Of a stretch of DNA of 64,000 nucleotides, positions 13,337 through 23,931 are shown piece after piece. Position 1 is the first letter of the stretch. Every line of letters starts with the position of its first letter. The stretch is from a virus (Duplodnaviria > Caudoviricetes). Location: IMG/VR virus record IMGVR_UViG_3300029305_004466, one strand, 5' to 3'. The position numbers were made by a program, and so were the translations under genes. A model generated the notes under the pieces. It searched no databases and had not been told where the DNA came from. It was given only the letters and a program-made list of their open reading frames with translations.

Positions 13337-14004
13337 TACATATTGTATGTTAAGAAACATACATGAATAACCATGTGCATAAGATATCTAATCAATATCG
13401 TCATGGATAAGCCGTATGATAGAGAGAATCATGTGACTGATAGGTTGCATAGATGCTCCTTGTATTAGTAGTAATGTTAATACAGAAGAGGGGAACCCCT
13501 CAACATCAAGGTTTAGTGTATGTTTATACTGTTTGTTAGTGCAGAATGCTTTTGGCAGGAGCAATAGACGCTTACCCGAAAGGTAAGAAGAATCCATTAA
13601 AGCGGTAGCCTGAGAAACTATCACACCTAATGGAACTCTCAAACAATCCTGTTTGTCGTGAATGGAAGAAATTCCAGTATAACAAAAGCATCGCTGGTAG
13701 TAGCCCAAGACAATAAAAGATTTTATTTAATGAAAAAGTGAATCATATAAATAAAAACATTCTGAATGATGGGTGAGGCTTGGAGGTATCAGTCCTCTAT
13801 GAGTTTAAGGTTATAGCTAAGTATGACGAGTATGAGATGCCCTTCGAGGAGCATGTGATACCGCATGGCTGGTTGGCTAGGGTAAGAAGCTTACAGATGA
13901 CGATTTGTAGGTTCAGACTTATTCTCTCATTCGCATAATAAGCATAAGGTATAAACAATAGGATGAAGGTCCATTCTTGTATGTTTCTTAGGGTACAATA
14001 TGTA
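13337..14004 (+). ncRNA. large structured ncRNA, ROOL-like
   Basis: ~670 nt with no credible ORF; 13337-13363 pairs with 13978-14004; follows a promoter and precedes the tRNA cluster. Confidence 0.55.
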
Positions 14005-14156: not shown

Positions 14157-14228
<72 letters not shown>

Positions 14229-14543
14229 TTATCCTCTTAGTAACTTTGCAGAGTTATCTAAGAAAAAGACATAATTAAAGTCTTAGTAAAGTCCTGCAAG
14301 ACTGAAAAGACAATGACAACAACCTTGTGTCTTAGTGGTTCTAATTTGGTTGTAGATGTCAAAGGATTCTGTATCATGATGTGCTGACCTACCAATTTGT
14401 AGGGCTATGATGAGAAGTCTATAGTGGGACTCCTTCTCCAAGTCAGGCTATGTGCAGATGGTAAAAGAGTTGAACCTCACCTAACAGTTGCAGTTTGGCA
14501 GTTTGAATGGCAGCAGGGTGTTAATTAAGAAAAAACTGTCAAT

Positions 14544-14615
14544 GGCTCCTTGGTCAAGTGGTTAAGACATCGCCCTTTCACGGCGGTAACGCTGGTTCAA
14601 ACCCAGTAGGAGTCA
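14544..14615 (+). tRNA. tRNA-Glu(TTC)
   Basis: cloverleaf, loop CTTTCAC. Confidence 0.9.
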
Positions 14616-14730
14616 TTTGGAGAAGAGGTAGGTAAGGTGGCAGGGATGGTTCCCATTGTGTTAGCAGTCGGTCAGAACGCTTTGACGGCAGTACCGCAGC
14701 TTAAAAATCAGTTTAGCTTCTCCAATACAT

Positions 14731-14804
14731 AGCGGGGTGGAGCAGTCCGGAAGCTCGTCAGGCTCATAACCTGAAGGTCGCAAGTTCAAATCTTGCCCCC
14801 GCCT
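14731..14804 (+). tRNA. tRNA-Met(CAT), initiator-like
   Basis: GCGGGGTGGAGCAG 5' end, mismatched 1:72 pair, loop CTCATAA. Confidence 0.88.
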
Positions 14805-14881
14805 CTGTAAGTTAATCCATTGACTTACACCTCACCTTATACCGCAGGCGTTCTTTGTAGCTTTCTCCTGCGGTATATAAT

Positions 14882-14967
14882 GGTAAGATGTCCGAGTGGC
14901 TTAAGGAGCTGGTCTTGAAAACCAGTGATGCGTAACTGCACCGTGAGTTCGAATCTCACTCTTACCG
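14882..14967 (+). tRNA. tRNA-Ser(TGA)
   Basis: long variable arm, loop CTTGAAA. Confidence 0.9.
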
Positions 14968-15182
14968 TTCTAAGTTCGAAAGGTCTTAGTTAAAAAACCT
15001 TAAACGTAAGGATTACAGAGGGCTATGGGTTGACGACCATAGAGCTTACGTTGTGAGAAAACCACAGGTGGCTAATCTGCTTTGTTCTATTAGCATGGAA
15101 AAATAGGAGAGTTAATTGAGCAATTTGTCTCACACAATATTGCTTAGGGCGGCAACCTCATGTCAAAGAAATAGCCAAACAC

Positions 15183-15268
15183 GGAGATTTACTCAAGTGG
15201 TTGAAGAGGAGGACTTGCTAAGTCTTTAGTATCGTAAGGTAGCGAAGGTTCGAATCCTTCAATCTCCG
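15183..15268 (+). tRNA. tRNA-Ser(GCT)
   Basis: long variable arm, loop TTGCTAA. Confidence 0.88.
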
Positions 15269-15514
15269 CTGAGCTGAGGTGCTAGAACTCAACTCTATGT
15301 AATAGACACACCTGTAAAAGATGTTTTGAGATTTAAGACTTCTTTTTGAAAGAAGCCACTGAATCAAAGTACATATCTACCTTGACCAGCTAGGTACGAC
15401 ATCAGTAGGAGGAAGTTACATAGATATGTTGGCAGTACGAAGAACTGTCTGCTTGGAAAATGAAGAATGATGGTCATTCCCGTTTCTACCATTTCTGTAC
15501 GTTAACAGAATTAA

Positions 15515-15588
15515 CGAGATGTAGGTCAGCTTGGTAGACCGCTTGATTTGGGTTCAAGAAGTCGCACGTTCGAATCGTGTCATCTCGA
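15515..15588 (+). tRNA. tRNA-Pro(TGG)
   Basis: cloverleaf, loop TTTGGGT. Confidence 0.88.
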
Positions 15589-16182
15589 CTAGCCAGAACA
15601 GAAGACATTTCGAGTTCGGCAAGAAAAAACTACATAGTCTTCATTAAGAAAGGAGGAATGGTATATGATTATTATTGTTGGCGGATTGCTGTGTTGTATG
15701 CTGTTCTTCCTTGAAGAACGTGTAGGCACAATTACTATTATGAATGGAGTGCCAGAGATTAGTCTAACAGCGGTTAAGTGGCTTTTGAGGTTTAGTCACA
15801 TAAATTCTAACTACTGGCATCCTGAGCCCAGAGTGCTCACGACAGCTTTTGTAGGCGGATTTATATGAATAATGACCTCAAAGAAACCTACTACATTGTT
15901 GAAGTGAGCGTTTAATTATAGAATATAGAATATAAACTAAATTAACAGTCAACACCGACATTATGGCAGTGTCACAGTGAAGAAGGAAAACTTATAAAAC
16001 CCGTTAAGATATTAATCCCCACATATGATAAATTAGGGATTGTTCACTTAAATGGTTAGAAAGAAAGAATAAAATATGTTGACAAAGAGAGACGGCTTAA
16101 TGCCATTAAGCCATAGAACGAATAGAATGAATATTATGTAAACCGCCCCGGTCCCGGTTATGATGTCGGGGCGGTATTTTTT

Positions 16183-16294
16183 GGGACGATAGTTTAATTG
16201 GAAAAATACTGGCATTAGCAATAGCCCGGGATTGCTAGAGACGGAGTTGGAACACCGTATCACCAGAGACAGGAGTTCAATTCTCCGAGTCCCA
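16183..16294 (+). ncRNA. tRNA-like RNA with ~50 nt two-hairpin insert replacing the anticodon loop
   Basis: D-arm, CTGG/CCAG stem, GGAGTTCAATTCTCC T-arm, partial acceptor stem. Confidence 0.55.
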
Positions 16295-16610
16295 CTTTCT
16301 CTTTCTGGGTTCCTGAATAGGAGTAGGCACTCATAATGCTTAGAATTCCTTTGTAAGAGAATATTAAAACTTCCATTATTGATACTGAGTATATTGTAAA
16401 CCTTGTTAATTGATGGACGAGGAGCAATTGTTATCTTTATCAATACAAAACCGATTTGATTCGGATAGGTAAATTGCCGAGGCAAGGTAAGTTATTAGTT
16501 TTGGTAGTCTAATAATAAAGAAGATGTGCTAAGAACAAGGATGGCGGTTGCATGATTAGCCATGGACAATGATTATGCAATGAGGCAGCAAATCGGTCTT
16601 AGCGACCTAT

Positions 16611-16684
16611 GGACCTTTAGCTCAGTTGGTTAGAGCGTCCGGCTCATAACCGGATGGTCGTAGGTTCGAGCCCTACAAGGTCCA
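16611..16684 (+). tRNA. tRNA-Ile2/Met(CAT)
   Basis: GGACCTTTAGCTCAG...AGGTCCA resembles Firmicute Ile2 (lysidine) tRNA; loop CTCATAA. Confidence 0.88.
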
Positions 16685-16890
16685 CTATACCGAGGGATGG
16701 TAGACTGATATAACAGTGGATGACAGCAAAGTTTCGTCTGTCGAAGGGATAGGGGCAATACATGTTACCGCCTATCGTGTAGGTATAATATTACAAAGTG
16801 TATTCGAATGAGTATTCTGTTTAACGGAAGAAAGTCAATCTTAAATGTGAAATATCTATTGACGAGGATATAGTAACAGCTTTGTACTGT

Positions 16891-16960
16891 AGGACATTAG
16901 CTTAATGGTAAAGCACACGACTGATAATCGTGGTCAGCAGTTCGATTCTGTTATGTTCTA
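16891..16960 (+). tRNA. tRNA-Ile(GAT)
   Basis: CACGA-CTGATAA-TCGTG anticodon arm; short variable loop. Confidence 0.78.
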
Positions 16961-17108
16961 TTCGGTGAAAAGCTGATAGATTACTGTCGATAGGGAGGCA
17001 GTTGCCCAGTGAAGGTAGCCGCCAGCTAACGCAGAGTAAATATGAGTATGGAGAACAAGTCCCCTATGATTTGCCATAAGCATACGAAATGGTTAGCTGG
17101 ATTAACCT

Positions 17109-17201
17109 CGGAGAGTAGCTCAGTGGGCAGAGCTTCTTGCTTAGAATGGGTAACTGCAAGTGAAATCCCGTTGGTCATGAGTTCGAATCTCATCTCTCCG
17201 T
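17109..17201 (+). ncRNA. tRNA-like RNA with a possible pseudoknot in place of the anticodon arm
   Basis: perfect acceptor, D and T arms; middle segment has CTTGC/GCAAG and AATGGG/CCCGTT pairings. Confidence 0.6.
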
Positions 17202-17323
17202 CTTTGTAAAGGTAAGTTATGGATGCATAATACTAGGATGAAAGGACTTAACTTTAAATGTCAATCTTCAAAACAGTAAGCGACAGCCTTTACAAAATTG
17301 TATCTTGAAAGGAACATATTTTT

Positions 17324-17548
17324 ATGAATGTTGCATTTGCATCAAAAATTGCTAATCTTATTAAAACTGGTCATTATTGGTCATATGCACATATTGCTGA
17401 AGAGTTGCATATAAATAAAAACACAGTAGCTCGTATTGGGAAAATTTATAAAGATGCCCGATGGAGCATTTATAGTGTTGACCAATTAGCACAGAAGCAT
17501 CACGTTAGCAAAAATGTTATTCGGGCTATTCGTGGTACTAAAGTCTGA
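17324..17548 (+). CDS. small HTH-like protein
   Basis: SYAHIAEELHINKNTVARI and SVDQLAQKHHVSKNVIRAI; GAAAGGA RBS. Confidence 0.65.
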   Translation: MNVAFASKIANLIKTGHYWSYAHIAEELHINKNTVARIGKIYKDARWSIYSVDQLAQKHHVSKNVIRAIRGTKV

Positions 17549-18158
17549 AAAAGTGACACATAATTATTCACAAAAGGGTGAATAACTAATGTTTATTAGT
17601 TTGAAACGGGTTCAAATCCTGATGTGTCACCTCAAGGGGCGATATATGAAAAAAGGTTTACTAAATCGCAAAGGGGCGGTTTTACTGCGGTAATAACTTT
17701 AATCATAATCACAGCTCCCGTGGGATAGATGGCTAAGGGATAGCTAAATCCCAATAGCAGGTTCCAATCGCAAGTTGTCCTGCCAAAAACCAAAAGGTTA
17801 TTGTGATAAGTATCATTTGTATGGAAACATACATGTGAGAAAAAACATCAGTGCTTGACATGCCAAAATACAAGCTGAATGAAGGTTGGTAAATGTATAC
17901 GCCAAAATACATAAGAGGTATATAAATATTAAAATAAATTGGATAATATTCATGATAAAACCGATTTAATATGTGAATTAACACAAGCAGTATATGTACC
18001 CGTTTGTCCAGTGAAGAATGAAGTATGTAACAAGTTGCATATACCATTGGATAGATTCAACCTTCAAGGTTGCCGTGAGACAAAAAGTAGGTATTTAGTA
18101 TGCAAAAGATATCAATGGCACGATAAATGAGTGAAATTCTCATCACTGATGTCAACTT

Positions 18159-18266
18159 GGAGAATTAGCTCAGTTGGCTAGAGCCCTACGAGGAGTTTCG
18201 ATTGGGTGAGCAATATGCTCCTAGACACCAGAAGAAACAGCCCCAGTTCGAATCTGGGATTCTCCA
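18159..18266 (+). ncRNA. tRNA-like RNA with expanded anticodon region
   Basis: GGAGAAT/ATTCTCC acceptor, canonical D-arm, CCCAG-TTCGAAT-CTGGG T-arm, ~55 nt middle. Confidence 0.6.
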
Positions 18267-18631
18267 ATATGACGTTTTAGGGTTTGGGCTCTTACGTAGA
18301 GTTGTTGTCAAATACCCTCATCGCTTCTTATCAGGCGGAAAGAAAACGGGACAACAAGTAGAGGGGGCTGATAATCTCTTCGAAAGTACCGAATATCATT
18401 GATTCTAACAATTGCTAATGTTGCATGAAGCGTGTGCTTCTCTAGCTTCCAACTAGGGCTTAGCCGCTTATAGAATCACAAATGAATGAGTGTGGAAAAC
18501 TCAGGTAGGTGTAACCCCTACTATTCGGTTTGGAAGCATATACCCATTGTGCTTCTTGCCATTATGTGTAAGCCTTTTTTCGGCTAAAGAGAAGGAAACT
18601 CTTAAAAACCAAATTATAGCATTATACATCA

Positions 18632-18661
18632 TTGACACATTTTGTTGCAGTGGTGTATAAT
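18632..18661 (+). promoter_or_regulatory. sigma-A-type promoter within an inverted repeat
   Basis: TTGACA-18-TATAAT. Confidence 0.65.
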
Positions 18662-18971
18662 GCTATTAGTTTTTATGGGAAGGAAACCCTATAATAAACC
18701 GTTAAGAAATTTTCATGTGGATATTTAAAACAAGAGCATGAAGGAGTCGGCATGGTAGCGAAAAAAGCCGAAAGCCTGTCTAATTTCACTTAAATGAAAG
18801 AAAGAAAAGACGAAAGGAAACCTCTACCAATCCCAGTCTAATATTTTGCAAAGGTATAAACTGAACCTGTTATCTATATATCCTAACATCTATACATTAG
18901 GTTTAAGTCGGGCCTGCATTAAAGTAGTCATTAAGTATAGAAATGTTTAAAACTACTGTATTGGACAACTT

Positions 18972-19102
18972 GCCGGAATATGCAAGCGGGTTGCAAGCAG
19001 CTATTTTTTAATAGTGAGTGAAACACATGAGTATAACTTGTGCTGTGACTGTCCTATGTGGGAGTAGGACATTAAAAGGGAGTTCGAATCTTCTATCCGG
19101 CA
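18972..19102 (+). ncRNA. degenerate tRNA-like RNA with large insertion
   Basis: GCCGGA/TCCGGC acceptor and GTTCGAATC T-loop. Confidence 0.45.
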
Positions 19103-19136
19103 CTTACATAATCTTATGGAAAGGAGAAAAATCACT

Positions 19137-19415
19137 ATGAACAAGACTGAATTAGTTAAGGTTATTGCTGATACTCAGGGTATTGCAGTGAAAGATGCTG
19201 AAAAGGCTATTAATGGCTTCATGGAAGTTGTTAAGACCGAAGTAGCAAAAGGCAATCCTGTACAGTTAGTTGGTTTTGGTACATTTACTGTAAGTAAACG
19301 TGCTGAAAAGACTGGTATCAATCCTCAGACTAAGGAAAAGATGGTTATTCCTGCTTGCAATGCACCTAAATTCAAAGCTGGCGAAAAGTTTAAGCAGATG
19401 GTTAAAGAAGCATAA
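19137..19415 (+). CDS. hup: HU family DNA-binding protein
   Basis: MNKTELV..., VQLVGFGTF, RAEKTGINPQT, PKFKAG. Confidence 0.95.
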   Translation: MNKTELVKVIADTQGIAVKDAEKAINGFMEVVKTEVAKGNPVQLVGFGTFTVSKRAEKTGINPQTKEKMVIPACNAPKFKAGEKFKQMVKEA

Positions 19416-19494
19416 TTTCCGGTAGTTAGCGGTGGACGTTTTTACTTTTCTATTTTCATCATCGCTTTATAAAACAAGGACAAGATAGATAGTT

Positions 19495-19569
19495 GTATGT
19501 GTAAGCTCAGTTGGGAGAGCTGGGGCGGAGAACCCGCCTTGTGCGAAGGTTCGAGTCCTTCCATGTGCA
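19495..19569 (+). tRNA. atypical/pseudo tRNA (noncanonical anticodon loop)
   Basis: D and T arms canonical; anticodon loop lacks U33. Confidence 0.5.
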
Positions 19570-19697
19570 ATATTAGCCACTGGTATTATTTTAAATGTAA
19601 CCTAATAACCATTTTAAAAATCTTTGGTAGGCTACATAATCACACCTAACCACAATACTTAATGCCAGTGGTTACTTAAAAAAGGAGGAATTCAAAA

Positions 19698-19856
19698 ATG
19701 AACAGAAACAGAAAGTTAAGCACAGCTACCTATGGACCAAGACACGTACAGCCACACAACCCTTATTCTATGGCTACAAAGTCAGGTATGAAGAAGATGC
19801 ACACAGATAAGACTCGTGGCGGTAATCCTGATGGTAGAGCAAACAGAGATATGTAA
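19698..19856 (+). CDS. small basic protein (52 aa)
   Basis: AGGAGG RBS, ATG 19698, TAA 19854-19856. Confidence 0.6.
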   Translation: MNRNRKLSTATYGPRHVQPHNPYSMATKSGMKKMHTDKTRGGNPDGRANRDM

Positions 19857-19884
19857 TTACATAGCAGGTCTATGACCTGCAAAT

Positions 19885-19957
19885 GGGTCACTAGCTCAGT
19901 AGGTAGAGCACTAGACTTTTAATCTAGGTGTCACGGGTTCGAACCCCGTGTGGCTCA
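19885..19957 (+). tRNA. tRNA-Lys(TTT)
   Basis: cloverleaf, loop CTTTTAA. Confidence 0.9.
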
Positions 19958-20042
19958 CTAGCCCCTTCGGGGCATTAATAGTAACTATTAATAGACGGGT
20001 TTACCGTCTTTTTTATTGGTTTTACAGAAAGGAAAGAGTATA

Positions 20043-20516
20043 ATGGAAAAAACAAAAGAATTGTGTAGCAAGATATACATGCATTGGTTCTTAGAAGAAA
20101 TGAAAGACCCCAAAATGCCTTACAAAGAAATTGATGAGGAATTTCTACAGAACTCTTTTATCACAAAGATTCTTCTTACAAAATTTAAATCGTTTGATGT
20201 TGATATTCATTTACCAATGCCTCTGTTAGCATTATTATCATTGTGTACAGATGAAAATCCGGGCATGTCTCAAATCATTCTTAAGGATTTACTTAATAGC
20301 ATTAAATCACGCATGGGAGCTATACCAAAAGGCTACGTTATTACGTCTACAGATTTTGCTTTTTGTTTCCCAAATAGTTTCCCTATAATTGCTAACGAGC
20401 AAATTTATGAGAAGTATATTAAATTATGGGATGGACAAAAACGTGAAAGACCAAATGAAATGGCAAGTGATAACTTGTGTGACACACCTGAATGGTGGAA
20501 AGAGGTTATGCAATGA
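20043..20516 (+). CDS. hypothetical protein
   Basis: GAAAGGA RBS before ATG 20043. Confidence 0.7.
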   Translation: MEKTKELCSKIYMHWFLEEMKDPKMPYKEIDEEFLQNSFITKILLTKFKSFDVDIHLPMPLLALLSLCTDENPGMSQIILKDLLNSIKSRMGAIPKGYVITSTDFAFCFPNSFPIIANEQIYEKYIKLWDGQKRERPNEMASDNLCDTPEWWKEVMQ

Positions 20517-20698
20517 AAAGAAAAGTAAACAGGTTTTTTAAGGCATTGTTGGCGGGGACAGCTGTTTTTGCAATAGCTACAACATTCGCATTACTTATTA
20601 GCTATTTTGTTAAGAACTCTTCAGCGATAGGCATCTTAGGAGTGATATTCATTCTTGTATTGGTAGTCGGTTATGCCTTAACTTCAGACCTGCCTTAA
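20513..20698 (+). CDS. small membrane protein (2 TM)
   Basis: two hydrophobic segments; ATGA overlap with upstream gene. Confidence 0.65.
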   Translation: MKRKVNRFFKALLAGTAVFAIATTFALLISYFVKNSSAIGILGVIFILVLVVGYALTSDLP

Positions 20699-20836
20699 AT
20701 AAAAAGGAGGAAAAGAGTATGAAAAAGAAGGATAAGAAACGCAAATGGAGTAATCGTGATAACATATTTGTTATTACAGCTATAATAATCCTGATAATTT
20801 CGACTGCACTAATTATTATACGTTAGGAGAAAAAAC

Positions 20837-21343
20837 ATGGCGATAATGGGTGAATGGATTCCGCATTGTGGATTCAAATCAAAAGCTGATGCTCACAAAG
20901 TAGCGTTAGAGCTTGAAAGCATCGGATATGATAATGGCACCGATGAATTTAATACACAAGAAATTGTAGATTTTGCACGTAATAATCCCACTTGTGAAAT
21001 TCATAAGTTATTAGAATGGGACGATAAAATAGCTGCTGAAGCTCATCGTAATGAGCAAGCGAGAGAGATTCTTCGTTTTCTTAAAATCACTGTTGTAACA
21101 ACACAGGAAGACAATCCAGTATTTCAGCCAACAAAAGTAAGATACTTTGTTAATACTGGTAAACATGATGGAACATATAAGAAAACTGAAGTCGTATTCC
21201 AGAATGCTAGTGAAGCAGACAGAATTATGGAAGGTATGAGGCGTGATGCTGAGAATTTTATTAACAGATATCAGATTTATGCTCATCTTAATCCGAATAT
21301 TCCTGCTGCTATTCAGGCATTACAAGCAGTAATCAATCCTTAA
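20837..21343 (+). CDS. conserved phage protein (EWDD..AAE..R..QAR family), putative accessory of the adjacent RAMP system
   Basis: IVDFARNNPTCEIHKLLEWDDKIAAEAHRNEQAREIL; abuts the pentamer array. Confidence 0.75.
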   Translation: MAIMGEWIPHCGFKSKADAHKVALELESIGYDNGTDEFNTQEIVDFARNNPTCEIHKLLEWDDKIAAEAHRNEQAREILRFLKITVVTTQEDNPVFQPTKVRYFVNTGKHDGTYKKTEVVFQNASEADRIMEGMRRDAENFINRYQIYAHLNPNIPAAIQALQAVINP

Positions 21344-21357
21344 TAAGTTGATGTTTT

Positions 21358-21952
21358 CTCTTGCATATATATTGGCTTAAATGCCAATGACAATAAGGCA
21401 ATTCATTGCACATAATTTCATAACAGGACAGCACAAAATACGTCAACATAGGCTAAGACATGTTAGCTCACATGGCTCTTTTGAGCCAATATATATGTAA
21501 GAGAGGACAGGACAACTCAGTGCATTTTACCACAATGAATGACAATCTATAACATGACAGAGGGGCGAGGACACTCGCCCCATTTTTATAAGTATAAATA
21601 TTGGCTTTAATTAGTCAATGAATATATTACAATACAAATGCACGATAGCTTAATACTGAACAGAATAGCATAATGCATGATACAATAAAACACATGGCTC
21701 TTAGAGCCTTTATTTATGCTTATAAATAGTAGGATTATGAATACATATATTGGCTTTAATGGTCAATGAAAACAAAATAAGTAAGCTGATTATTGTACAG
21801 AACAGCCCAGCCCACTACAAAACAGTACAGGACAAAACAAATGGCTCTTAGAGCCTTTATATGTGTTCATAAACACAAGCACAAAGACAGCAGAATACAT
21901 GTCAGTGCAACATAGGATATTACAAAACATTTAAATCCTATCAAAAGATAGG
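21358..21952 (+). ncRNA. array of structured guide-like RNAs containing five pentamer (NN+NYA) repeat tracts
   Basis: three cassettes (21358-21503, 21586-21725, 21735-21872), each outer stem + ATTGGC hairpin + CAATGA + 14-16 pentamers + ATGGCTCTT..GAGCC hairpin; extra tracts at 21505-21559 and 21873-21929. Confidence 0.85.
21562..21587 (+). terminator. intrinsic terminator within the array
   Basis: GGGGCGAG/CTCGCCCC stem + ATTTTT. Confidence 0.7.
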
Positions 21953-21970
21953 TAGAAGGAGACACACATT

Positions 21971-22645
21971 ATGGCAACAAAGAAAAACACAACCCCAGAA
22001 GTACAGGTAGTAGAAACTGAATTACAGAATAAGATTCGTTTCGCTACAGCAACAATCACCATTCAGGGTGATAGCGATTTAATTCTTAACAAGATGAGAG
22101 ACAGTACTACACAGCAGCTTGCAGATAAGCAGGAAGGTAAAGTACAGGGTACTAAGGCTCCTGTTAATATGTATGAGCATCTTGTTGGTTCTATTCACTG
22201 GTTAAAGGGTGAAGAAACTAACTATACAGAAGAAGGATGGAAAAATGCATTAGCAAACAATACTCCGGGTTATCCATCTTCTGGTTTAAAGAAAGCTCTT
22301 TGCGATGCAGTTGTTCGTGTATTAGGTGAAACATATAGCACGAAATTTAATGCAAATATGCAGATTCTTGATAGTTTCCTGCCGATTAAGTTTGCGGCAA
22401 GCACATATGATAAGTCTTTATTTAGTCCACAGAAGGGCAGTCCTGTCCTTTGTTACAGAAATGTATTCAAAGACTGGGAAACAACTTTCACAATCAAGTA
22501 CATTCCAGATAACTATTCTCTGGACCAGATTCTTGAAGTTATCAATTGTGCAGGCTTTGCATGTGGTATTGGTAGCCACAGACCATCTAGTAAGGGCGGT
22601 TCCAATGGTATGTTCCATGTAGCAAAGGTTGTAGAAATGGTATAG
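21971..22645 (+). CDS. stand-alone RAMP/Cas7-like RNA-binding protein
   Basis: N-terminal beta strand (ATITIQGDSDL), PGYPSSGLKKAL (compare RAMP IPGSSLKGAL), C-terminal glycine-rich loop GFACGIGSHRPSSKGGSNGMFHV. Confidence 0.8.
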   Translation: MATKKNTTPEVQVVETELQNKIRFATATITIQGDSDLILNKMRDSTTQQLADKQEGKVQGTKAPVNMYEHLVGSIHWLKGEETNYTEEGWKNALANNTPGYPSSGLKKALCDAVVRVLGETYSTKFNANMQILDSFLPIKFAASTYDKSLFSPQKGSPVLCYRNVFKDWETTFTIKYIPDNYSLDQILEVINCAGFACGIGSHRPSSKGGSNGMFHVAKVVEMV

Positions 22646-22652
22646 GTGTTTT

Positions 22653-23111
22653 ATGGCTGATTCAAAGAAAAGATTATATTCAAGAGAAACCATTAACAAG
22701 CATTACAGCGATTTTATTGAACAGGTAAAAACTTATAATGAAAAAGGCTTTCCTGATAAAATACTTGATGTTGTTATTTTTGGTTCGTACATTAATACAA
22801 ACAACCCTAAAATGCACGACTTGGATATAGGAATAAGATTTGAAAAACATCCAGAACTGTATGAGGATTACAAAAAGAAAATGTCAAAAGAGCAATTGGA
22901 GAAATATGCAAACAGATGTTTTTTGGACAGATTAGTAATACCTCATACAGAGGAAATTAGATTTTTAAAAGCAAAGCATGGAACTATTTCTCTATATGAT
23001 ATTGATTATGACAAAGAATATATCTTTAATGATAAACATTTGTACATAGTAAAAAATGGCGAGCTAATAGAAGATGCATTACCTATTCCTTTGAATTTGC
23101 AAACCAAATAA
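22653..23111 (+). CDS. minimal nucleotidyltransferase (Pol-beta superfamily)
   Basis: VVIFGSY...DLDIGI motif. Confidence 0.8.
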   Translation: MADSKKRLYSRETINKHYSDFIEQVKTYNEKGFPDKILDVVIFGSYINTNNPKMHDLDIGIRFEKHPELYEDYKKKMSKEQLEKYANRCFLDRLVIPHTEEIRFLKAKHGTISLYDIDYDKEYIFNDKHLYIVKNGELIEDALPIPLNLQTK

Positions 23112-23119
23112 GGTGAAAA

Positions 23120-23332
23120 ATGATGAGTATTAACAAAAACCGTTATATAGGAAAAAAGATAGGTTTTTATTACGACAGTAAAAAAGCCGTACATGAAGTA
23201 GAAGCTATTATAAAAGACGTAAGTATTTTAGGTATACTGGTAAGAGTTACCAAAAGTAGTAATGTATTTTACAATGTAAGCAACCAGTATCTTATTCCGC
23301 TAAATGCAAGTTTTGTATACAAATTCTTATAA
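23120..23332 (+). CDS. hypothetical protein
   Basis: AAGGTG RBS. Confidence 0.6.
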   Translation: MMSINKNRYIGKKIGFYYDSKKAVHEVEAIIKDVSILGILVRVTKSSNVFYNVSNQYLIPLNASFVYKFL

Positions 23333-23342
23333 GGAGGTACAT

Positions 23343-23591
23343 ATGTCACCGATTGAAATTCAGGAAATCACAAACAGAGTAAATGCTATGACTGAAGAAG
23401 AACAGGTTTTAGTCGCTTCTCTGTTACCTGTACAGCTTATGTTAGATGCAATTAATGCTAAGTATAACGCTGTTGCAGATGAATTAGATGAAATGAACGA
23501 ACTCATGAGAATTAAGAATAACCAGATTACAAGAGCAGCAGGTACTACAAGAACACTTACACATGTTCTTAATGAAATAGCGGCTGGTTAA
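23343..23591 (+). CDS. hypothetical protein
   Basis: AAGGAGG RBS before ATG 23343. Confidence 0.7.
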   Translation: MSPIEIQEITNRVNAMTEEEQVLVASLLPVQLMLDAINAKYNAVADELDEMNELMRIKNNQITRAAGTTRTLTHVLNEIAAG

Positions 23592-23598
23592 ATTTCTG

Positions 23599-23627
23599 TT
23601 GACACAAAATGTTACAAGCATTATAAT
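23599..23627 (+). promoter_or_regulatory. consensus sigma-A promoter with ACAAAATGTTACA operator in the spacer
   Basis: TTGACA-17-TATAAT. Confidence 0.8.
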
Positions 23628-23858
23628 GTCATTATCCTTAATATGAGTTCATGAATTGGTTACTGTAATGCTCAGTATTAAATCATGGTTGCCTCTCGAT
23701 TGGCATTAAAAGGTCAGCCATAGCCAAAAACATTTCTACCTATCAGGTGGGTTAGGGGATTATCCCCGCTTACTAAAAAACTTTTGTACGCTGGAAGTTC
23801 CGTAGGGGTGTCTGTTAGCTTAGGGCGAAACAGAGGGTAGTTTATAAAGCGTACACCT

Positions 23859-23931
23859 TGGGCTATCGCCAAGCGGTAAGGCACAGCACTTTGACTGCTG
23901 CATTTCGTTGGTTCAAATCCAACTAGCCCAG
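23859..23931 (+). tRNA. tRNA-Gln(TTG)
   Basis: TGGGCTA/TAGCCCA acceptor, loop CTTTGAC. Confidence 0.9.

What the first reader, a model, noticed from the sequence alone, without database searches (positions are those of the whole stretch)
20837..23111. Putative RNA-guided system: stand-alone Cas7/RAMP-like protein with pentamer-repeat guide cassettes
Seen: the 630 bp upstream of a RAMP-like gene (21971-22645) holds three homologous cassettes. Each has a 15-19 bp outer stem whose sequence varies while pairing is kept (G-U wobbles favour a + strand RNA), a conserved ATTGGC..CAATGA hairpin, 14-16 pentamers and an ATGGCTCTT..GAGCC hairpin. Two more pentamer tracts lie outside the cassettes. Cassette 1 reads caata aggca attca ttgca cataa tttca taaca ggaca gcaca aaata cgtca acata ggcta agaca tgtta gctca: positions 1-2 vary and positions 4-5 are YA in 15 of 16. 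Established: Cas7-type RAMPs polymerise along RNA with a fixed footprint per subunit. Inference: one subunit binds each pentamer by its NYA and presents NN for pairing. No cas1/cas2, nuclease or CRISPR array is present in the window. This resembles my recollection of recently reported phage VIPR-type systems (GGY/NN repeats; not verifiable here), but the scaffold here is NYA and it sits in hairpin-capped cassettes.
Basis: partly seen in the sequence, partly recalled or inferred. Interest (0 to 1): 0.97.

Follow-up and report, generated by a model that had tools for sequence, protein, structure and literature searches.

The report
Phage VIPR system with AYA/NN guides
A roughly 210 kb phage carries a divergent member of the recently described VIPR RNA-guided systems: its guide RNAs use AYA/NN five-base units instead of GGY/NN, and two of the five guides match, with one base skipped after each pair, the DNA polymerase and cytosine methylase genes of other phages.

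Summary
The 627 nt between 21344 and 21970 carry five tracts of 5-nt units (NN-D-Y-A). Three of them sit in homologous cassettes closed by covarying 15-20 bp stems. The gene at 21971-22645 has a Cas7/RAMP fold and matches the solved SUSP1 Vipr protein by sequence (E 5e-5; profile 1e-6).

This is a VIPR system, a kind published in April-October 2026, so it is not categorically new. It differs in three ways:
- The fixed trinucleotide is AYA, not GGY. Across 81 loci the unit is NN-A(81%)-Y-A(98%).
- The Vipr residues that read the two guanines in SUSP1 (D177, W178) are S and H here.
- The guides sit in stem-closed cassettes.

New here: under the published one-base-skip rule, guide 1 matches family A DNA polymerase genes in more than 106 viral contigs (up to 31/32 positions, variable bases on codon positions 1-2). 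Guide 2, allowing one U·G pair, matches motif X of C5 cytosine methylases (41 hits, all in frame). Complete relatives of this phage lack both genes.

A 168-aa upstream gene is conserved in 78 of 80 loci and is the likely accessory. The downstream nucleotidyltransferase is not conserved.

The scan's first-stage notes had already proposed both targets. Expression, RNP formation and silencing are untested.

The parts
20837..21343 (+). 168-aa candidate Vipr-accessory (vap-like) gene
   Evidence: Homologues lie upstream of the array and vipr, in the same order, in 78 of 80 related loci. It matches phrog_15946, of unknown function. In the AF2 model (pLDDT 78), residues about 14-120 give only weak winged-helix-like matches (Z 5.3-6.0), which is inconclusive.
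21352..21509 (+). Cassette 1: closing stem, 5' and 3' conserved elements, guide 1
   Evidence: The inverted-repeat arms are 30 nt long and 87% complementary. The RNA fold has z = -7.1 on the + strand and -4.3 on the - strand.
21391..21470 (+). Guide 1: 16 units; matches family A DNA polymerase genes of other phages
   Evidence: Units 6-16, read as NN plus one skipped base, match more than 106 viral contigs. All 14 ORFs listed carry the motif QFYGANRTGRWA, with NN on codon positions 1-2; three were confirmed as PF00476 and two as phrog_17. The full guide matches 26-31 of 32 positions. Five bacterial genomes or MAGs of Lachnospiraceae/Clostridia match at 31/32.
21505..21559 (+). Guide 2: 11 units outside the cassettes; matches motif X of C5 cytosine methylases (antisense orientation)
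   Evidence: The exact pattern gave 0 hits. With one guide-U/target-G position allowed, it gave 1 viral and 40 metagenome hits. All are in frame as Q/H-Y-I/M-QIGNAVPP, and the four ORFs tested are PF00145. The guide is conserved, with motif-compatible changes, in L001 and L002.
21562..21581 (+). G+C-rich hairpin followed by a T run: terminator and 3' cap of guide 2
   Evidence: 8-bp stem with 7 G-C pairs, followed by ATTTTTAT on the + strand only. Conserved, with a changed loop, in L001 and L002.
21585..21726 (+). Cassette 2 with guide 3 (21622-21692: 3 units, a 1-nt slip, 11 units); target not found
   Evidence: Inverted repeat I2. Fold z = -4.6 on + and -1.8 on -. Its scaffold is almost identical to L002 cassette 3, but the guide differs. 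The pattern scans gave 0 hits.
21735..21872 (+). Cassette 3 with guide 4 (21770-21839; the last 9 units are clean); target uncertain
   Evidence: Inverted repeat I3. Fold z = -5.3 on + and -2.0 on -. The scaffold is identical to L002 cassette 4 and L001 cassette 2, with unrelated guides. The 9-unit pattern hits 5 contigs, in frame, in two groups of large ORFs; the one ORF tested from each group was tail-fibre-like in one case and of unknown function in the other. This is close to my rough chance estimate.
21885..21929 (+). Guide 5: 9 units outside the cassettes, conserved in relatives; target not found
   Evidence: The NN series is the same in the window, L001 and L002. It gave a single viral hit, which is not significant.
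21937..21952 (+). Hairpin between guide 5 and the vipr ribosome-binding site
   Evidence: The stem is CCTATC/GATAGG. In L001 and L002 the stem sequence differs but still pairs (direct reading).
21971..22645 (+). vipr gene: 224-aa stand-alone RAMP protein
   Evidence: phmmer hits PDB 36pp_D 'SUSP1 Vipr protein' at E 4.9e-5, and the family profile at 1e-6. AF2 pLDDT is 83.8. The top Foldseek hits are all Cas7-type proteins such as Csm3 and Cmr4 (E about 1e-6, probability 1.0). The family has a G-rich loop, AGFxxGIGSxR.

Best explanation
This is a VIPR (Viral Interference Programmable Repeat) system of a divergent clade, carried by a phage of about 210 kb.

How it most likely works:
- The + strand of 21344-21970 is transcribed into five guide RNAs (vrRNAs) made of 5-nt units.
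- In each unit the Vipr protein (21971-22645) holds a fixed trinucleotide (A-Y-A; D-Y-A in this window) and exposes the two variable bases.
- Vipr subunits polymerise one per unit.
- The exposed dinucleotides pair with double-stranded DNA that reads NN-x-NN-x, the published one-base-skip code. A guide can therefore follow codon positions 1-2 of a conserved protein motif and ignore the wobble base.
- Guide 1 is aimed at the family A DNA polymerase gene, and guide 2 at the C5 cytosine methylase gene, of competing phages or prophages of Clostridia/Lachnospiraceae. Binding would silence those genes.
- Three guides sit in cassettes whose ends pair into a 25-30 bp imperfect stem. This stem probably directs excision of each vrRNA by a double-strand-specific RNase such as host RNase III, or caps the filament.
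- The conserved 168-aa upstream gene is the likely accessory protein.

Shown here: protein homology and fold, array anatomy, strand, family-wide conservation, and target matches. Inferred: transcription, RNP assembly, DNA binding, silencing and the processing route.
For: Protein:
- It matches the solved SUSP1 Vipr by sequence (E 4.9e-5 alone, 1e-6 as a profile).
- It has a Cas7-type fold and a G-rich loop.

Array:
- The window holds five significant NN-D-Y-A tracts and no comparable tract elsewhere.
- In 81 loci there are 325 tracts on the gene's strand and 3 on the other, almost all within 1.5 kb upstream of vipr. The logo is N N A(81%) C/T A(98%), with 7-20 units per tract.
- Scaffolds are identical between relatives while the guides are unrelated.

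Strand:
- Stems show 12 G·U and 0 A·C pairs.
- The terminator exists on the + strand only.
- Fold z-scores are stronger on the + strand.

Code and targets:
- Guide 1 (22 specified bases) gave more than 106 viral hits, in family A polymerase ORFs at one motif and in codon register wherever I checked the ORF and family. Extension to all 16 units gives up to 31/32.
- In two named phage polymerase genes chosen by protein homology, not by the pattern, skip 1 gives 27/32 and 25/32. Skips 0, 2 and 3 give 17-19/32.
- Guide 2 with one U·G pair gave 41 hits, all at motif X of C5 methylases.
- Three other patterns of equal or higher information content gave 0 hits, which serves as an empirical null.
- Guide 1 has the sense of the polymerase mRNA and guide 2 is antisense to the methylase mRNA, so DNA rather than mRNA must be the target of at least one.
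- Complete relatives of 208 and 213 kb encode neither target family.

The published mechanism is described in bioRxiv 10.64898/2026.04.26.720920 and .720927.
Against: - There are no expression, RNP or binding data for this clade.
- Three of the five guides have no convincing target.
- A clean 12-unit guide from a distant relative (L004) had no exact hit.
- No 32/32 match was found for guide 1, and guide 2 needs a U·G pair in every hit.
- The collection scans accept exact patterns only. No shuffled-guide scan of a whole collection was run, and the collection sizes are not known to me, so chance expectations are rough.
- The RNase III idea rests only on stem length.
- The accessory's fold match to winged-helix domains is weak.
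Confidence: 0.85

Rival explanations
1. The tracts act as DNA, not RNA: they are iteron-like binding sites or a regulatory region for the upstream (possibly winged-helix) protein, and the RAMP gene is merely adjacent.
For: The upstream gene is always next to the array and gives weak winged-helix-like matches. A 5-nt period is half a helical turn.
Against: The stems keep pairing through G·U pairs on one strand only (12 against 0), which is a property of RNA. Guides vary freely at exactly two positions per unit. Two guides decode to conserved motifs of foreign genes under the VIPR rule. The adjacent protein is a Vipr homologue.
Confidence: 0.03
2. It is an RNA-guided system that targets mRNA (an antisense or type III-like mode) rather than double-stranded DNA.
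For: The closest solved folds are Csm3/Cmr4, the backbone subunits of RNA-targeting type III complexes. Guide 2 is antisense to the methylase mRNA.
Against: Guide 1 has the same sense as the polymerase mRNA and cannot pair with it. The nearest sequence relative, SUSP1 Vipr, binds dsDNA. The one-base-skip register is the published DNA code.
Confidence: 0.06
3. The system is an ordinary VIPR member already catalogued. The AYA/NN motif would be the reverse-strand reading of the 'WGT/NN' or 'TGH/NN' non-canonical clusters reported in October 2026, so nothing about the repeat is new.
For: The preprint 10.64898/2026.10.21.760802 reports 21 non-canonical VIPR-like clusters, found with strand-agnostic embeddings and oriented with about 80% success. 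The reverse complement of TGH is DCA, and of WGT is ACW.
Against: Its figure S10 and cluster lists are not held, so the identity cannot be checked. The text I searched and read in that paper mentions no targets, stem-closed cassettes or accessory gene for those clusters.
Confidence: 0.4

Closest known systems
Type II VIPR of Escherichia phage SUSP1 (Vipr + vap1 + vrRNAs; bioRxiv 10.64898/2026.04.26.720920, .720927; PDB 36pp)
   Same: - Stand-alone RAMP protein with detectable sequence homology.
- Phage-borne, with no CRISPR repeat family found in the window.
- Guide tracts of 7-20 five-base units (9-16 in SUSP1), each with three fixed and two variable bases.
- The array lies in the intergenic DNA flanking vipr, and there is one small accessory gene.
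- Target matches follow NN plus one skipped base, with the skip on the codon wobble position.
- Targets lie on either strand, in genes of other mobile elements.
   Different: - The fixed trinucleotide is A-Y-A rather than G-G-Y, and the most invariant base is the one just 5' of NN.
- The G-loop residues that read the guanines in SUSP1 (D177, W178) align to S and H here, and to S and G in most of the family.
- All guides lie upstream of vipr.
- Three guides are enclosed by covarying closing stems instead of carrying a 3' pseudoknot tail.
- The accessory lies upstream and has no detectable similarity to a solved structure.
- The targets are polymerase and methylase catalytic motifs rather than a satellite recombinase or lysogeny regulators.
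Non-canonical VIPR-like arrays (GAC/NN, CAC/NN, WGT/NN, TGH/NN) from the COMPASS intergenic atlas (bioRxiv 10.64898/2026.10.21.760802)
   Same: Five-base periodic arrays with a fixed trinucleotide other than GGY, next to a Vipr-like fold. TGH and WGT are reverse complements of DCA and ACW, which overlap the motif seen here.
   Different: In the parts of that paper I searched and read, those clusters are described by motif and neighbouring fold only, with no strand assignment by G·U pairs, no natural targets, no skip rule and no cassette structure. Whether this family is among them could not be checked.
Cas7 backbone subunits of class 1 CRISPR effectors (Csm3, Cmr4, Cas7 of Cascade)
   Same: RRM core, G-rich loop and thumb hairpin. 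One subunit binds per fixed stretch of guide, and the thumb interrupts guide-target pairing periodically.
   Different: The footprint is 5 nt rather than 6. Three guide bases are flipped per unit rather than one. There is no CRISPR repeat-spacer array and no acquisition genes are known for VIPR. The protein is a single RAMP with no large or small subunit.

Membership tests
VIPR system | Vipr protein: a minimal RAMP (RRM core, G-rich loop, thumb) homologous to described Vipr proteins | tested here: met
   phmmer hits PDB 36pp_D SUSP1 Vipr at E 4.9e-5, and the 28-sequence profile at E 1e-6. The top Foldseek hits are Cas7-type proteins. The G-loop AGFxxGIGSxR is conserved.
VIPR system | vrRNA genes: tandem 5-nt units with a fixed trinucleotide alternating with a hypervariable dinucleotide, about 9-16 units, in intergenic DNA beside vipr | tested here: met
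   Five tracts of 7-16 units lie upstream of vipr. The family logo is N N A Y A over 144 unique tracts of 7-20 units. Guides differ between identical scaffolds.
VIPR system | The fixed trinucleotide is GGY, or one of the related consensuses listed in the discovery paper (NNNGG, YNNNG, NNNNG) | tested here: not met
   The fixed part is A-Y-A on the transcribed strand, or T-R-T on the other, with no conserved G. This makes it a variant. Non-GGY VIPR arrays have since been reported.
VIPR system | Targets are recognised by the NN dinucleotides with one skipped base (xNN), with the skip on the codon wobble position, on either strand of another mobile element | tested here: met
   By sequence matching only. 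Guide 1 matches family A polymerase genes. Guide 2 matches C5 methylase motif X. Skips 0, 2 and 3 give background scores. Guides 3-5 are unresolved.
VIPR system | A minimal locus with a vap accessory gene and without a CRISPR array or cas genes | tested here: inconclusive
   A conserved 168-aa neighbour is present in 78 of 80 loci, but no link to the published vap1-6 could be tested. Rfam found no CRISPR repeat family in the window. The window's ORFs were not all scanned for cas genes.
VIPR system | vrRNAs are expressed, co-purify with Vipr, and the RNP binds and silences dsDNA | not testable with these tools
   Needs small-RNA sequencing, pull-down and reporter assays.
CRISPR-Cas class 1 effector | The Cas7 subunit works with crRNAs from a repeat-spacer array, together with other cas genes | tested here: not met
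   There is no CRISPR repeat family in the window. In 80 related loci only the small upstream gene is conserved beside the RAMP gene.

The most novel reading that the evidence does not exclude
This clade is an undescribed VIPR type in three respects.
- The protein reads an A-Y-A trinucleotide instead of G-G-Y while keeping the one-base-skip DNA code, which would make it an orthogonal programmable scaffold.
- Its guides are released from stem-closed cassettes by a host double-strand RNase.
- Its natural guides are written against invariant catalytic motifs (polymerase, methylase) shared by many competing phages. One guide would then disarm a whole class of rivals, with U·G pairs tolerated.
Probability: 0.45. 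Interest if true: 0.7.

Novelty: new variant of a known kind. Interest (0 to 1): 0.62.

Why it matters
VIPR is a months-old discovery, and its recognition code has been shown experimentally only for GGY/NN guides.

A natural clade with a completely different fixed trinucleotide, but whose target matches follow the same skip-one rule, would show that the code (two read, one skipped) is separable from how the protein grips the guide. That points to orthogonal VIPR scaffolds for multiplexed DNA targeting.

The targets also say something about phage ecology. A large phage of gut or rumen Clostridia appears to aim single guides at the most conserved codons of rivals' replication and anti-restriction genes. 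This is an escape-resistant, broad-spectrum form of inter-phage interference.

The stem-closed cassettes suggest a further way of maturing guide arrays, beside the pseudoknot tails, staggered arrays and hammerhead ribozymes already described.

Tried and rejected
- Pfam and Rfam gave nothing for the RAMP gene or the intergenic region.
- A local search of 135 guides from 81 loci against the loci themselves, and a second search of 131 guides from the 80 related loci against the polymerase loci, showed no excess over shuffled guides for skips 0-2. Relatives' guides therefore do not target each other's VIPR loci or the polymerase neighbourhoods.
- No other called guide in the 80 loci carries the polymerase or methylase motif. 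The guide 2 homologues in L001 and L002 are missed by the caller because of a 6-nt unit, and I read them by eye.
- Exact scans gave nothing for guide 2, guide 3 in viral and metagenome contigs and the L004 guide.
- Guide 4 (18 specified bases) hit five contigs, in frame at VDAALKVGN, in two groups of large ORFs; the one ORF tested from each group was tail-fibre-like in one case and of unknown function in the other. The five upstream units match only 3/10 and the hit count is near my rough chance estimate, so I left it open.
- Guide 5 gave one hit, which is not significant.
- The nucleotidyltransferase at 22653-23111 (PF01909) was rejected as a system component. No related locus keeps it.
- Accessory protein: no solved or annotated relative was found.
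- Gordonia phage UmaThurman gp39 is a distant homologue (26% identity). Its 116-nt upstream spacer shows no obvious pentamer array, and its upstream gene is unrelated to the accessory.
- No whole genome is held for the window, so self-targeting was tested on two complete relatives instead.
Full report
**What is in the sequence**

Between a 168-aa ORF (20837-21343) and a 224-aa ORF (21971-22645), both on the + strand, lie 627 nt of non-coding DNA.

This DNA contains three homologous cassettes. Each is bracketed by a long-range inverted repeat: 21352-21381/21480-21509, 21585-21610/21701-21726 and 21735-21759/21848-21872. Each carries a conserved 5' element (ATTGGC..CAATGA) and a conserved 3' element (ATGGCTCTT..GAGCC).

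Inside and between the cassettes are five tracts of 5-nt units ending in YA:
- 21391-21470 (16 units)
- 21505-21559 (11 units)
- 21638-21692 (11 units, preceded by 3 more before a 1-nt slip)
- 21795-21839 (9 clean units, or 14 in frame from 21770)
- 21895-21929 (7 units, or 9 from 21885)

The same caller finds nothing on the minus strand and only two marginal 6-unit runs in the other 63 kb. Only 16 of 1000 dinucleotide-preserving shuffles give any tract scoring 7 or more, and none exceeds 8. The observed scores are 13, 9, 8, 8 and 7.

**Strand and RNA structure**

Over 10 cassettes from the window and two close relatives, the outer stems are 15-20 bp, differ in sequence and stay paired. The count is 158 Watson-Crick pairs, 12 G·U pairs as read on the + strand, no A·C and 4 mismatches. 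On the other strand the G·U pairs would be A·C mismatches, so the RNA is the + strand.

Two more results point the same way. A G+C-rich hairpin followed by a T run (21562-21581) exists on the + strand only. The cassettes fold with z-scores of -7.1, -4.6 and -5.3 on the + strand, against -4.3, -1.8 and -2.0 on the minus strand.

In the minimum-energy folds the closing helix runs on through the conserved elements (GGCUUUAA with UUAGAGCC). This gives an imperfect stem of about 25-30 bp around a loop of about 70-80 nt that holds the pentamers.

**The protein**

Pfam finds nothing. However, phmmer against PDB sequences hits 'SUSP1 Vipr protein' (36pp_D) at E 4.9e-5, and a 28-sequence family profile hits it at E 1e-6. 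The match covers the thumb-to-G-loop region.

The AlphaFold model (pLDDT 83.8) finds Cas7-type subunits (Csm3, Cmr4, type VII Cas7, Cascade Cas7) as its top matches, at E about 1e-6 and probability 1.0. So the RAMP fold is met.

In SUSP1 Vipr, D177 and W178 of the G-loop read the two guanines and R179 helps hold the pyrimidine. In the alignment these positions are S, H and R here, and S, G and R in most of the family. This fits a change of the fixed bases, but that link is an inference.

**The family**

Eighty viral contigs encode homologues at 42-96% identity. Two are complete relatives of 208 and 213 kb, and most of the rest are contigs of 50-90 kb.

In these loci plus the window, the tract caller finds 325 tracts on the gene's strand and 3 on the other, nearly all within 1.5 kb upstream of the gene. 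Position 3 was not used for calling, yet it is A in 81% of units (61% in the window). Position 4 is C 75% and T 22%. Position 5 is A 98%. Positions 1-2 are near-random. The unit is therefore NN-AYA: three fixed and two variable bases, like GGY/NN.

Cassettes in the window, L001 and L002 share identical 5' and 3' scaffolds and stems but have unrelated guides. This is what a programmable guide would look like.

The 168-aa upstream gene is present in the same order in 78 of 80 loci. The downstream nucleotidyltransferase (PF01909) is present in none. The accessory's model gives only weak winged-helix-like matches and no annotated relative.

**Literature**

VIPR systems were reported in April 2026 (bioRxiv 10.64898/2026.04.26.720920). 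They consist of a phage-borne stand-alone RAMP, vrRNAs of 9-16 YNNGG units, and a vap gene. They recognise dsDNA through the NN dinucleotides with one target base skipped, usually the codon wobble base, and their natural targets lie in competing phages and satellites. Seven types are described, with alternative consensuses NNNGG, YNNNG and NNNNG. Arrays are simple, staggered or interspersed with hammerhead ribozymes.

The structural paper (.720927) shows one protomer per unit, with GGY flipped out and NN presented.

An October 2026 preprint (10.64898/2026.10.21.760802) lists 21 non-canonical clusters (for example GAC/NN, CAC/NN, WGT/NN, TGH/NN) beside Vipr-like folds, found with strand-agnostic embeddings. 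TGH and WGT are the reverse complements of DCA and ACW. This family may therefore already be in that catalogue, read on the other strand. The figure is not held, so I could not check.

**Targets**

I wrote each guide's NN series with one wildcard between pairs and scanned public collections for exact matches.

Guide 1:
- All 14 ORFs I listed are 378-753 codons long and carry the motif QFYGANRTGRWA, with the guide's NN on codon positions 1-2. Three are PF00476 and two are phrog_17.
- Extending to all 16 units gives 26-31 of 32 matches. The five unforced units match 8-9 of 10 positions in the best hits.
- A full-length scan of one genome per species found five hits at 31/32. All are Lachnospiraceae or Clostridia, including the isolate Lachnospiraceae bacterium AC2029 and a sheep-duodenum MAG.
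- In two named phage polymerase genes picked by protein similarity, not by the pattern, skip 1 scores 27/32 (Ruminococcus phage NatCom_38182) and 25/32 (Terrisporobacter phage TPDSL_ph1). Skips 0, 2 and 3 score 17-19/32.

Guide 2:
- The exact pattern gave no hit.
- A first-stage note of this scan suggested that its reverse complement reads C5 methylase motif X with one guide U opposite a target G.
- Allowing R at that one position gave 1 viral and 40 metagenome hits. All are in frame as Q/H-Y-I/M-QIGNAVPP, all have G at the relaxed position, and the four ORFs tested are PF00145.
- In L001 and L002 the homologous guide carries a 6-nt unit and an AT-to-AC change in one NN. This reads QVGN instead of QIGN, a common variant of the same motif (direct reading).

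Null and self checks:
- Three other patterns with 22-24 specified bases gave zero hits, which gives an empirical null.
- Guide 1 has the sense of its target's mRNA and guide 2 is antisense to its target's mRNA, so DNA must be the target for at least one.
- The window has neither motif. The two complete relatives encode neither that polymerase family nor any PF00145 gene, so the targets are non-self.

Guides 3-5 remain open.

**Mechanism proposed**

The + strand is transcribed and vrRNAs are cut out or capped at the closing stems. The stem length suggests a double-strand RNase such as RNase III, but that is an inference. Vipr polymerises one subunit per 5-nt unit, holding AYA and presenting NN. 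The filament binds dsDNA in NN-x register and blocks transcription of rivals' polymerase and methylase genes.

The last step is by analogy with SUSP1. No nuclease is conserved in the locus.

**Verdict**

This is a real, well-supported VIPR system of a divergent clade: a new variant of a recently published kind.

The scan's own first-stage notes had already guessed both targets. Here they were tested against public collections and they held.

Noticed in passing
window 13347-13991 (+): Full-length ROOL RNA (RF03087, 305 bits). This is a large ornate RNA of unknown function, here on a phage genome just upstream of a tRNA array.
   Followed up: no
window 14157-23931 (+): Eleven tRNA genes, most between 14157 and 19957 and one at 23859-23931 downstream of the VIPR locus. 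A first-stage note also reports tRNA-shaped RNAs with replaced anticodon arms at 16183-19570.
   Followed up: no
window 22653-23111 (+): A 152-aa nucleotidyltransferase-fold protein (PF01909, E 4e-6) lies directly after vipr, but is absent from all 80 related loci, including the 96%-identical relative. It looks like a strain-specific insertion of unknown role.
   Followed up: partly
L001 about 2565-2575 and L002 about 2470-2480 (homologues of window 21525-21529): The guide 2 homologues contain one 6-nt unit (TTTCTA in place of TTTTA), yet the decoded methylase motif stays in register. An extra base in the fixed part therefore seems to be tolerated. The 1-nt slip in window guide 3 (after 21636) may be the same thing.
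   Followed up: partly
L239 (Gordonia phage UmaThurman, NC_031249.1 32723-33346): gp39 is a distant homologue of the Vipr-like protein (26% identity over 95% of its length, E 4e-9). It sits two genes from the excise gene, next to the integrase and immunity-repressor genes. Its 116-nt upstream spacer shows no obvious 5-nt array.
   Followed up: partly
L187-L191 (IMG/VR contigs): The last nine units of guide 4 match five contigs exactly and in frame at the peptide VDAALKVGN. The ORFs are large and fall into two sequence groups; the one ORF tested from each group was tail-fibre-like (phrog_28766, PF13884) in one case and of unknown function (phrog_5906) in the other. The number of hits is close to my rough chance estimate, so it stays open.
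   Followed up: partly
window 20492-20698 and 20721-20828 (+): Two very small ORFs lie just upstream of the accessory gene. Their reading frames look hydrophobic, like membrane peptides (direct reading). They are not conserved in related loci.
   Followed up: no
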